Shown: positions 32,378 through 34,059 of the stretch, piece after piece
Layout: each line of letters starts with the position of its first letter
How positions within the stretch are numbered: the first letter of the stretch is position 1
From: the human T2T-CHM13v2.0 reference genome, Homo sapiens
Assembly: GCA_009914755.4 (NCBI GenBank)
Contig: CP086569.2
Span: 5,088,001 to 5,152,000 of the forward strand
Length of the DNA: 64,000 bases
Direction: 5' to 3'
Notes under the pieces: model-generated
Told to the model about the DNA's origin: nothing
What the model saw: the letters and a program-made list of their open reading frames with translations, nothing else
The model's database searches: none
Program-made: the position numbers and the translations under genes

Positions 32378-32948
32378 CAGTGGAAAATAAAATGATAGAA
32401 CAGTTGATGAAATGCCACTTAGGAATTTTTATTTTCTGTTCCTATTTCTCTCCCTAGGAAGACTACCTAAATGAATATAAACTTTTAGGTACTTTTGCCA
32501 TATTTAGTGAAGATATTGTTACCCATATAAATATTTGAAGAGTTAGAATCTCTTTAAAAAAGAAAAATTCACAGAAATCATTAGAAATGCCAAAACTTCA
32601 TCTCATAATTTGCAGATGTAATACAATAAATAATTATAAAACATTCCAATATGAAGTCTCTCATCAGTATTCTCAGGTATCTGTGTTAATAATCTGAAAA
32701 ACTAGAGCATGTATATCTGATATATTGTCAGCTAATAATTGCATGCTTTCAAAGGCCATATCTTAAGGAACTCACTATAGCGTAAAAATAAAGAGATTAA
32801 TATTAGACCTAAAAGTCTAACATAGTAGGGTCAAACAATGGACTTGAAAGCCCTGGAACATTTTGAATATTTGAATTACATAAATCGTTTTAAAAACAAC
32901 TGTAATAAAAAACCTTGTGTTAATGAGTTTTAAGATTTTGCAGTGCTT

Positions 32949-33046
32949 CATAGCCAAGTCTTGAGATACAAGATTGAATGTGTATTTCTTAAAAATACAA
33001 CTTTGTGTTGTACTTTGAAATAAATGATGCTTTAAAAAAAAAAAGC
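32949..33046 (+). other. Short retroposed polyadenylated RNA 3'-end fragment (~85 nt plus A11) with AATAAA 10 nt before the tail. It is flanked by a perfect 13-bp TSD TTTTGCAGTGCTT. The source RNA is unknown
   Basis: Structure: [ttttgcagtgctt] catagccaagtcttgagatacaagattgaatgtgtatttcttaaaaatacaactttgtgttgtactttgaaATAAAtgatgcttt a(11) gc [ttttgcagtgctt]. The TSD copies lie at 32936-32948 and 33047-33059. Confidence 0.6.
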
Positions 33047-34059
33047 TTTTGCAGTGCTTGATTACTGCCAAAATCTCTTATTTTTCATGTGCACTTGGGC
33101 AGTCTAGTTGATTGCATACTGAGCTGTCCTCTAAAGCTTTAAGGGAATTTATTTTAAAAAGACTCATAAAAAAGGTTTATTCAGACTACCTGCAAGACCC
33201 CCATGTGCTTTTTGCTACTTGAGATAATAACATCTATTATGTGAGAAATAATAATTGTCACTCTGAAAAGAAACAATTGATTTCACTGTTTTACTTTGGG
33301 TCCTGGCAGCTTTTTATCCTGACTTTTTCAGAATTCAATTATTGAAGAGATCTCTAACTGTCCATACAGCATGCACCTGGGATTAGTACACCTGCTATTT
33401 CTATTCAACATGGATATATCAGCAAAAGCTATTTTGCTTTTTCTTGGGGAAGATTTTCCCCAACAGAAAGATGTTTTCTTTTGAGCAACTAAGGTATTGA
33501 CAATTAAGATGCAAAAAAAGATTATGCCTGTAAATATTTCTTTCTCAGAAATACAACATATGATTTCTGAGACATAACTTACATGATCTGATCATGGAAT
33601 GTGTTATTAAAAAATGTCCTGTTTAAAAATTTTTCAGAAAGCCACTTAAAGTAATAATTACTTTTAAAGAAGTACAAGTAATGAAATCATTTGAAATTTC
33701 TATTTCTTGTGAAGATTAAGTGTCAGGGAGTGAATTTACCCTTCACCTGAAACAACAAAGAAACCAAACAAAATGTATGAAACAATGGTTCTCAACATAT
33801 CATACATAAAGGTACATGAATAATGATACTTAAGAAATAGAACATAAATGAAACAATAGTTACTCTTGCCTTAGCTTATTGCTTGCATATAATTTCTATC
33901 CTTTAGCACAGGGAGAGGGAACCCAAATAGAGCATGATTGGGCCCTCGTAGTAAATTCATCTCCTGGAATTGTGAGCCCAGGGAGGTCAAGGTGGCTAGG
34001 GTCCCTGGTCAGTGCTTATAGGGAAATTTATGGCATAAAATTACAATATTAGACAAGAA

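What the first reader, a model, noticed from the sequence alone, without database searches (positions are those of the whole stretch)
32936..33059. Orphan ~96-bp polyadenylated retro-insert with its own AATAAA and a perfect 13-bp target-site duplication
The segment 32949-33046 ends in A11 with AATAAA 10 nt upstream and is bracketed by identical TTTTGCAGTGCTT copies. This is the signature of L1-mediated retroposition of an RNA 3' end. The inserted sequence does not look like an Alu, L1, SVA or snRNA tail that I recognise. It may be the extreme 3' UTR of a cellular mRNA (a processed-pseudogene stub) or a 3'-transduced flank. Identifying the parent locus would be informative.
Basis: seen in the sequence. 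Interest (0 to 1): 0.5.

Follow-up and report, generated by a model that had tools for sequence, protein, structure and literature searches.

The report
Retrocopied tail of TMEM131 mRNA
This is an ordinary dead fragment of a processed pseudogene: the last 85 bases of the TMEM131 messenger RNA plus its poly(A) tail, pasted into primate DNA by the LINE-1 machinery.

Summary
A perfect 13-bp direct repeat (32936-48 / 33047-59) brackets a 98-bp segment that ends in AATAAA, nine more bases, A11 and GC. The repeat extends to 17 bp with one mismatch (AAGA/AAGC + 13). That puts the insertion at TTTT|AAGA, a LINE-1 endonuclease-type site.

The parent was found. A six-frame peptide query made from the insert hit ORFs on Logan contigs. 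On those contigs the same 85 nt (85/85, 84/85 and 83/85 identical, E about 4e-38) form the very end of a ~770-nt 3'UTR. The coding exon upstream of that UTR ends ...SDPWSNSHFPHEN. UniRef entries named 'Transmembrane protein 131' (Aotus, Capra, Spermophilus) share that C-terminal sequence (Capra ends ...PHKN).

The match starts exactly after the first repeat copy and stops exactly where the A run begins. The parental genomic DNA continues TTTCAAAAGCC there, so the tail is untemplated.

The 3'-transduction alternative is disfavoured.

The fragment has no coding sequence and no promoter, and no function is expected. No primate copy of the parent gene and no orthologous empty site could be fetched with these tools. 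Interest is low: this is a textbook case.

The parts
32928..32935 (+). Insertion target TTTT|AAGA. The inferred bottom-strand nick lies between 32931 and 32932, a LINE-1 endonuclease-type site (5'-TCTT/AAAA-3' on the bottom strand).
   Evidence: Read directly. The consensus 5'-TTTT/A(A)-3' is quoted from PMC12016303. That TT|AAGA is a common variant rests on my own knowledge (Jurka 1997).
32932..32948 (+). 5' copy of the target-site duplication, AAGATTTTGCAGTGCTT (perfect 13-bp core at 32936-32948).
   Evidence: (D2).
32949..33033 (+). 85-nt retrocopy of the extreme 3' end of the TMEM131 mRNA 3'UTR, 5'-truncated. There is no microhomology and no filler at the 5' junction.
   Evidence: blastn gives 85/85 to L012, 84/85 to L014-L018 and 83/85 to L013, with E about 4e-38 to 2e-35. 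Alignment. Gene named through.
32981..32984 (+). UGUA motif 52 nt upstream of the cleavage point, with a second at 33009-33012 (24 nt upstream). These are typical upstream elements of a poly(A) site, but not significant on their own.
   Evidence: Read. About 0.5 such motifs are expected by chance in 85 AT-rich nt (my own rough estimate, not a tool result).
33019..33024 (+). AATAAA polyadenylation signal inherited from the TMEM131 mRNA.
   Evidence: It is invariant in all parent-type loci and is AAATAAATAATGCTTT in a more distant vertebrate, L020.
33034..33044 (+). Untemplated poly(A) tail of 11 A. Under the 17-bp duplication model the last two A belong to the 3' repeat copy, leaving A9.
   Evidence: The parental genomic loci read TTTCAAAAGCC or CTTTCAAAAGCC at this point, not an A run.
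33043..33059 (+). 3' copy of the target-site duplication, AAGCTTTTGCAGTGCTT (C at 33046 against A at 32935).
   Evidence: (D2).

Best explanation
A mature, polyadenylated TMEM131 mRNA was used in trans by the LINE-1 ORF2 protein for target-primed reverse transcription.

Inferred steps: the endonuclease nicked the bottom strand at TTTT|AAGA (between 32931 and 32932). The exposed T-rich 3' end annealed to the poly(A) tail. Reverse transcription copied only the last 85 nt of the 3'UTR before the cDNA was joined to the other side of a staggered break. Repair of the 17-nt stagger made the flanking duplication.

Shown directly: the sequence identity to the TMEM131 3'UTR end, the exact coincidence of the boundaries, the untemplated tail, the duplication, and the endonuclease-type site.

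Inferred: that ORF2p did it, that the template was the full mRNA, and that the one mismatch in the duplication arose after insertion.

The product has no coding sequence and no promoter. It is a dead-on-arrival fragment of a processed pseudogene with no expected function. It also happens to record where TMEM131 mRNA was cleaved and polyadenylated.
For: (1) The structure at the stated coordinates is confirmed.

(2): a six-frame peptide query of the insert hit two Logan ORFs, P0001 and P0002. Their contigs L012 and L013 carry the 85 nt at the end of a ~770-nt 3'UTR. In L012 that UTR follows a coding exon ending ...GRRSSDPWSNSHFPHEN*; L013 begins inside the UTR.

(3): the match covers window 32949-33033 exactly (85/85, 84/85, 83/85; E 3.7e-38 to 1.9e-35). 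Nothing else in the 64-kb window matches these loci.

(4): the parental loci continue TTTCAAAAGCC past GCTTT, whereas the window has A11. The tail is therefore not templated by the gene.

(5): adjoining upstream exons (from L019) hit UniRef 'Transmembrane protein 131' entries from Aotus, Capra and Spermophilus. The Aotus fragment ends with the same 33 residues as the L012 exon.

(6): identity between two mammalian orders is 94% across the UTR and 68.5% in the 100 nt beyond the site. The conserved block, and so the transcript, ends where the insert ends.

(7) An internal control sits in the same window: a ~117-bp L1PA-type 3' stub with a 16-bp duplication at 29233-29381. It shows that equally short LINE-1-mediated insertions occur here.

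(8) The hallmarks (endonuclease site, duplication, poly(A) tail, 5' truncation) are those listed for TPRT insertions and processed pseudogenes in PMC12016303.
Against: - The primate TMEM131 locus itself was not seen. The parent is known only from non-primate orthologues plus a primate protein fragment.
- No orthologous empty site could be examined.
- The cleavage point is only 9 nt past AATAAA and follows a U. That is at the short end of the usual range and is not the preferred CA.
- The flanking repeat is perfect only over 13 bp. The mechanistically sensible 17-bp version needs one mismatch.
- An 85-nt stub cannot show loss of introns, which is the usual proof of an RNA intermediate.
Confidence: 0.92

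Rival explanations
1. Orphan L1 3' transduction. An L1 lying in sense orientation inside or just upstream of the last TMEM131 exon read through to the TMEM131 poly(A) site. The chimeric RNA was retrotransposed in cis and truncated so severely that only the transduced tail remains.
For: The poly(A) signal, tail and duplication fit equally well.
Against: In L012 and L014 the 1-3 kb upstream of the site is TMEM131 coding exon, intron and UTR. Neither locus shares anything beyond the 85 nt with this L1-rich window. No dedicated L1 scan of these loci was run. The gene's own mRNA ends at this site and is the simpler template. A primate-specific L1 there cannot be excluded with these tools.
Confidence: 0.03
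2. The template was not the full-length mRNA but a short RNA that already began near CATAGCC, such as a 3'UTR-derived cleavage product or degradation intermediate with a poly(A) tail. The shortness would then reflect the template rather than 5' truncation during reverse transcription.
For: The 5' junction is clean, with no microhomology and no filler. Nothing in the sequence distinguishes the two routes.
Against: 5' truncation is the rule for LINE-1-mediated insertions (PMC12016303). The L1 stub at 29249-29365 is equally short. There is no evidence for such a TMEM131 RNA species.
Confidence: 0.04
3. DNA-level event or chance. Either a small segmental copy or filler DNA from the TMEM131 locus was captured at a break, or the similarity and the flanking repeat are fortuitous.
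For: About 1.2 perfect repeats of 13 bp or more at this spacing are expected per window by chance.
Against: The 85-nt match has E about 4e-38. The copy stops at the poly(A) site and carries an A run that is absent from the parental DNA. The joint chance of the repeat lying next to an A/T run is about 2e-4. There are no terminal inverted repeats. The similarity between the upstream flank and the parent's upstream UTR is at chance level (1751 of 2000 shuffles reach it).
Confidence: 0.01

Closest known systems
Processed pseudogenes (retrocopies of cellular mRNAs made in trans by LINE-1; Esnault et al. 2000, cited in PMC12016303)
   Same: Derived from the mature 3' end of a protein-coding mRNA, with an untemplated poly(A) tail, a 13-17-bp target-site duplication, a TT|AAGA endonuclease-type site and 5' truncation.
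   Different: It holds only 85 nt of 3'UTR and no coding sequence. Protein-based pseudogene catalogues would therefore miss it, and intron loss cannot be shown.
Severely 5'-truncated L1 insertions (for example the L1PA-type stub at window 29249-29365)
   Same: Same machinery, same size class (about 100 bp), and the same tail and duplication.
   Different: The template is a cellular mRNA acting in trans, not L1 RNA in cis. The insert has no similarity to the L1 or Alu copies in the window.
Orphan L1 3' transductions
   Same: A unique, non-repeat sequence with its own AATAAA, tail and duplication, and no L1 sequence.
   Different: The source here is the natural end of a gene's 3'UTR, not the flank of a progenitor L1.

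Membership tests
LINE-1-mediated processed pseudogene (retrocopy) fragment | The sequence matches exonic sequence of a parent mRNA and ends at its polyadenylation site. | tested here: met
   85/85, 84/85 and 83/85 identity to the end of the TMEM131 3'UTR in L012, L014 and L013. Conservation between parental loci drops from 94% to 68.5% right after this point. The parent was seen only in non-primate orthologues.
LINE-1-mediated processed pseudogene (retrocopy) fragment | The poly(A) tail is not encoded at the parent locus. | tested here: met
   The window has A11. The parental loci read TTTCAAAAGCC or CTTTCAAAAGCC.
LINE-1-mediated processed pseudogene (retrocopy) fragment | Flanking target-site duplication of roughly 7-20 bp. 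| tested here: met
   13 bp perfect, or 17 bp with one mismatch.
LINE-1-mediated processed pseudogene (retrocopy) fragment | Insertion at an L1 endonuclease consensus-like site (5'-TTTT/A(A)-3' on the nicked strand). | tested here: met
   With the 17-bp duplication the top strand reads TTTT|AAGA, so the bottom strand is TCTT/AAAA (consensus). With only the 13-bp core the site would be non-canonical.
LINE-1-mediated processed pseudogene (retrocopy) fragment | Introns of the parent are absent. | not testable with these tools
   The 85 nt lie within a single exon.
LINE-1-mediated processed pseudogene (retrocopy) fragment | The copy lies away from the parent gene. | tested here: met
   There is no other TMEM131 UTR or coding similarity in the 64-kb window (blastn; tblastn with P0006).
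LINE-1-mediated processed pseudogene (retrocopy) fragment | A precise empty site exists in genomes that lack the insertion. | not testable with these tools
   No primate orthologue of this locus was found in any reachable collection.
Orphan L1 3' transduction | The source sequence lies immediately downstream of a full-length progenitor L1. | tested here: inconclusive
   In the cetartiodactyl-like and carnivore-like contigs the upstream sequence is TMEM131 exon, intron and UTR. Neither locus shares anything beyond the 85 nt with this L1-rich window, but no dedicated L1 scan of them was run. The primate locus was not seen.
Truncated SINE/LINE/SVA or small-RNA retrocopy | Similarity to a repeat consensus or to a structured small RNA. 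| tested here: not met
No Rfam family scores better than E = 0.28, all far below their gathering scores. No SVA consensus and no repeat library were available.

The most novel reading that the evidence does not exclude
The stub carries an intact, deeply conserved poly(A)-site core: two UGUA motifs, AATAAA and the cleavage position. It also sits upstream of a U/GU-rich stretch supplied by the duplicated target (GCTTTTGCAGTGCTTG). If the insertion lies in sense orientation inside a transcribed host gene, it could act as a cryptic intronic polyadenylation site, or could offer the binding sites of the conserved TMEM131 UTR end to a host transcript. Nothing here tests this.
Probability: 0.04. Interest if true: 0.3.

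Novelty: new member of a known kind. Interest (0 to 1): 0.12.

Why it matters
It matters little on its own. It is a clean worked example showing that an 'orphan' poly(A)+duplication insert can be the tail of an ordinary mRNA. Such 3'UTR-only stubs are invisible to protein-based pseudogene catalogues and to repeat libraries, so they survive as unexplained unique sequence.

Two small by-products follow. The copy is a fossil record of the TMEM131 cleavage site (after GCUUU, 9 nt past AAUAAA). It also drew attention to a TMEM131 3'UTR that is more conserved between mammalian orders (94%) than the last coding exon (84.6%).

Tried and rejected
- **Rfam:** no hit at gathering score in the whole window. 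At E up to 10 around the insert there were only chance-level snoRNA or miRNA hits.
- **Second copy or repeat identity:** blastn of the insert against the window and against Alu/B1/MIR consensus sequences found nothing.
- **Exact ORF look-ups:** three window ORFs, including the 84-aa minus-strand ORF that spans the insert, are not on record.
- **Exact DNA scans with the insert's 3' end:** 0 hits in genome contigs and 0 in viral contigs. The 11 metagenome hits are all bacterial-looking sequence with unrelated flanks, so they are chance.
- **The search for related loci** with the spanning ORF on metagenomes: 198 pattern matches, none confirmed.
- **Naming the parent from its last exon alone:** Pfam gave nothing, PDB gave only chance hits, the protein search returned only unnamed Logan ORFs, and a full-text search for six peptides gave 0 papers. 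The name came only after walking to upstream exons in L019.
- **Possible longer copy:** apparent similarity between the window's upstream flank and the parent's upstream UTR in the MAFFT alignment was tested and is chance (1751 of 2000 shuffles reach it).
- **Coding hypothesis:** the open sense frame HSQVLRYKIECVFLKNTTLCCTLK*, whose stop lies inside AATAAA, was considered as a possible coding end. It is rejected because the sequence lies about 690 nt downstream of the TMEM131 stop codon.

Full report
**1. The observation**

The window is primate DNA. blastn with an Alu consensus finds at least nine Alu copies, and MIR fragments are also present.

At the stated coordinates the sequence reads...gagTTTT AAGA TTTTGCAGTGCTT | CATAGCC...TTTGAAATAAATGATGCTTT | AAAAAAAAAAA GC TTTTGCAGTGCTT gattac...

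- The perfect 13-mer TTTTGCAGTGCTT lies at 32936-32948 and at 33047-33059.
- AATAAA is at 33019-33024.
- Nine bases follow it, then A11 at 33034-33044.

The repeat finder extends the repeat leftwards to 17 bp with one mismatch, AAGA/AAGC plus the 13-mer (D2).

A perfect 13-mer repeat at this spacing is not rare in itself. About 1.2 are expected per shuffled window and 18 are seen, most of them explained by Alu dimers, tandem duplications and other target-site duplications. The conjunction with an A run has a chance of about 2e-4. It is also corroborated independently in section 3 below.

**2. Which duplication is the real one**

For an insert whose poly(A) abuts the right-hand repeat copy, the first-strand nick lies at the left edge of the duplication.

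- With the 13-bp core, the primer would end in AAAA-3', which cannot pair with poly(A).
- With the 17-bp version, the top strand reads TTTT|AAGA. That is the LINE-1 endonuclease pattern. The consensus 5'-TTTT/A(A)-3' is quoted from PMC12016303. That TT|AAGA is one of the common variants is from my own knowledge (Jurka 1997).

I therefore take the duplication to be 32932-32948 / 33043-33059, with one difference (A at 32935 against C at 33046). This leaves a tail of 9-11 A.

**3. Finding the parent**

None of the tools holds a primate genome, and the direct routes failed.

- Rfam gave nothing.
- The insert has no second copy in the window and does not resemble its Alu or L1 copies.
- Exact look-ups of window ORFs were empty.
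- DNA pattern scans of the genome, viral and metagenome collections gave nothing, or only chance bacterial hits.

I then translated the insert in all six frames, joined the open pieces with X linkers, and searched the protein collection. Two Logan ORFs matched the antisense frame SIIYFKVQHKVVFLRNTHSILYLKTWL: P0001 at 100% and P0002 at 93%. Their contigs are L012 and L013.

Read on the opposite strand, these contigs contain the insert sequence at the very end of a ~770-nt 3'UTR. In L012 that UTR follows a coding exon ending ...GRRSSDPWSNSHFPHEN*; L013 starts within the UTR.

blastn shows that the match covers window 32949-33033 and nothing else. Identity is 85/85 (L012), 84/85 (L014-L018) and 83/85 (L013), with E from 3.7e-38 to 1.9e-35. 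The homology therefore starts at the first base after the left repeat copy and ends at the last base before the A run. Past that point the parental DNA reads TTTCAAAAGCC..., not A.

**4. Naming the parent**

The last exon alone gave no Pfam family, no PDB relative, no named protein and no literature hit.

A longer contig from a more distant vertebrate (L019) contained three further upstream exons. A search with those exons hit UniRef entries named 'Transmembrane protein 131' from Aotus nancymaae, Capra hircus and Spermophilus dauricus, plus several fishes.

The Aotus fragment P0006 runs through the same exons and ends ...GQTYNPWRIWSPTIGRRSSDPWSNSHFPHEN. It is identical over the last 33 residues to the exon on L012, and 83% identical over 93 residues.

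The parent is therefore TMEM131, a broadly conserved transmembrane protein implicated in collagen secretion (PMC7015688).

L012 ends in a SINE start that I recognise as cetartiodactyl CHR-2-like. L014 is bracketed by CAN-SINE-like starts. Those taxon guesses rest on my own knowledge of SINE heads.

**5. Is this really the mRNA end?**

Between L012 and L014, identity is 84.6% in the last coding exon, 94.0% across the 768-775-nt UTR, and 68.5% in the 100 nt beyond GCTTT. The conserved block stops where the insert stops.

A T/GT-rich stretch follows within about 30 nt in the parental DNA. Two UGUA motifs lie 24 and 52 nt upstream of the cleavage point in the insert.

A distant vertebrate (L020) keeps CATAGCCAAG...AAATAAATAATGCTTT.

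The window contains no TMEM131 coding sequence and no other part of the UTR. The copy is therefore an isolated stub away from the gene.

**6. Mechanism**

The evidence fits target-primed reverse transcription of TMEM131 mRNA by LINE-1 ORF2p acting in trans: a nick at TTTT|AAGA, priming on the poly(A) tail, copying of 85 nt, and a 17-nt staggered second break.

The 5' junction has no microhomology and no filler. The vague similarity between the two upstream flanks in the MAFFT alignment is chance.

A control in the same window shows that equally short LINE-1-mediated products occur here. It is a ~117-bp L1PA-type 3' end on the minus strand, with a T run and a perfect 16-bp duplication, at 29233-29381.

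**7. Age**

The insert equals the majority base of the three mammalian parents at all 85 positions. If the primate parent matches that majority sequence, there are 0 changes in 111 nt (85-nt insert plus two copies of the 13-bp core). Counting the 17-bp duplication instead gives 1 change in 119 nt.

The 95% upper bounds are 2.7% and 4.0% divergence. I read this as an insertion within catarrhine or hominoid history. This is an inference, since the primate parent was not seen.

**8. Rivals**

- **Orphan L1 3' transduction.** It would need a sense-oriented L1 inside the end of TMEM131. The non-primate contigs there show only TMEM131 exon, intron and UTR, and they share nothing but the 85 nt with this L1-rich window. 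No dedicated L1 scan of them was run, and a primate-specific L1 is not excluded (confidence 0.03).
- **A short pre-existing 3'UTR fragment as template.** This cannot be told apart from 5' truncation (confidence 0.04).
- **A DNA-level copy or chance.** This is excluded by the untemplated tail and the statistics (confidence 0.01).

**9. Verdict**

The parent is TMEM131. It is a textbook processed-pseudogene fragment with no expected function.

What remains untested is the empty site in other primates, the primate parent sequence, and whether the inherited AATAAA is ever used in a host transcript.

Noticed in passing
window 29233-29381: A ~117-bp 5'-truncated L1PA-type 3' end on the minus strand. 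It has a T run at 29249 followed by ...tatactttaagttttagggtacatgtgcacaatgtgcaggtt..., and is flanked by a perfect 16-bp duplication CAGATACTGGCTTTCT. It is a second very short LINE-1-mediated insertion in the same window and was used here as an internal control.
   Followed up: partly
window 13529-13664: A direct repeat of about 30 nt (18 nt perfect, ATTCTTAGAACTAAAAAT, with a 3-nt indel further left) flanks about 77 nt of unrelated sequence. There is no A or T tail. It lies just downstream of an L1 ORF2-like stretch (12889-13406). The mechanism is unexplained.
   Followed up: no
window 49744-49960: Several perfect 13-26-mers recur at a constant spacing of 133 bp, which indicates a recent 133-bp tandem duplication.
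   Followed up: no
window 16245-16568: The Alu at about 16288-16544 (minus strand) is flanked by a perfect 15-bp duplication TCTAAATGGTAATTT.
   Followed up: no
window 32316-32377: A compound microsatellite, (TA)12 followed by (AG)19, lies about 560 bp upstream of the insert.
   Followed up: no
L012 and L014 (TMEM131 last exon and 3'UTR in two non-primate mammals): The ~770-nt 3'UTR is more conserved between the two loci (94.0%) than the last coding exon (84.6%). Identity falls to 68.5% just past the poly(A) site. The terminal block is still recognisable in a more distant vertebrate (L020). This suggests strong post-transcriptional constraint on the TMEM131 UTR.
   Followed up: partly
window 6700-7700 and 45800-46500: Two GC-richer islands (43-46% GC against about 33% elsewhere) contain ORFs of 90-146 aa. 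The two that were scanned had no Pfam hit. They may be LTR or CpG-island-like sequence, but they were not identified.
   Followed up: no
window 9396-9461 and 63268-63363: Short local direct repeats: a 24-nt perfect repeat at spacing 42, and a small tandem array of TTTATACTTT-type units.
   Followed up: no
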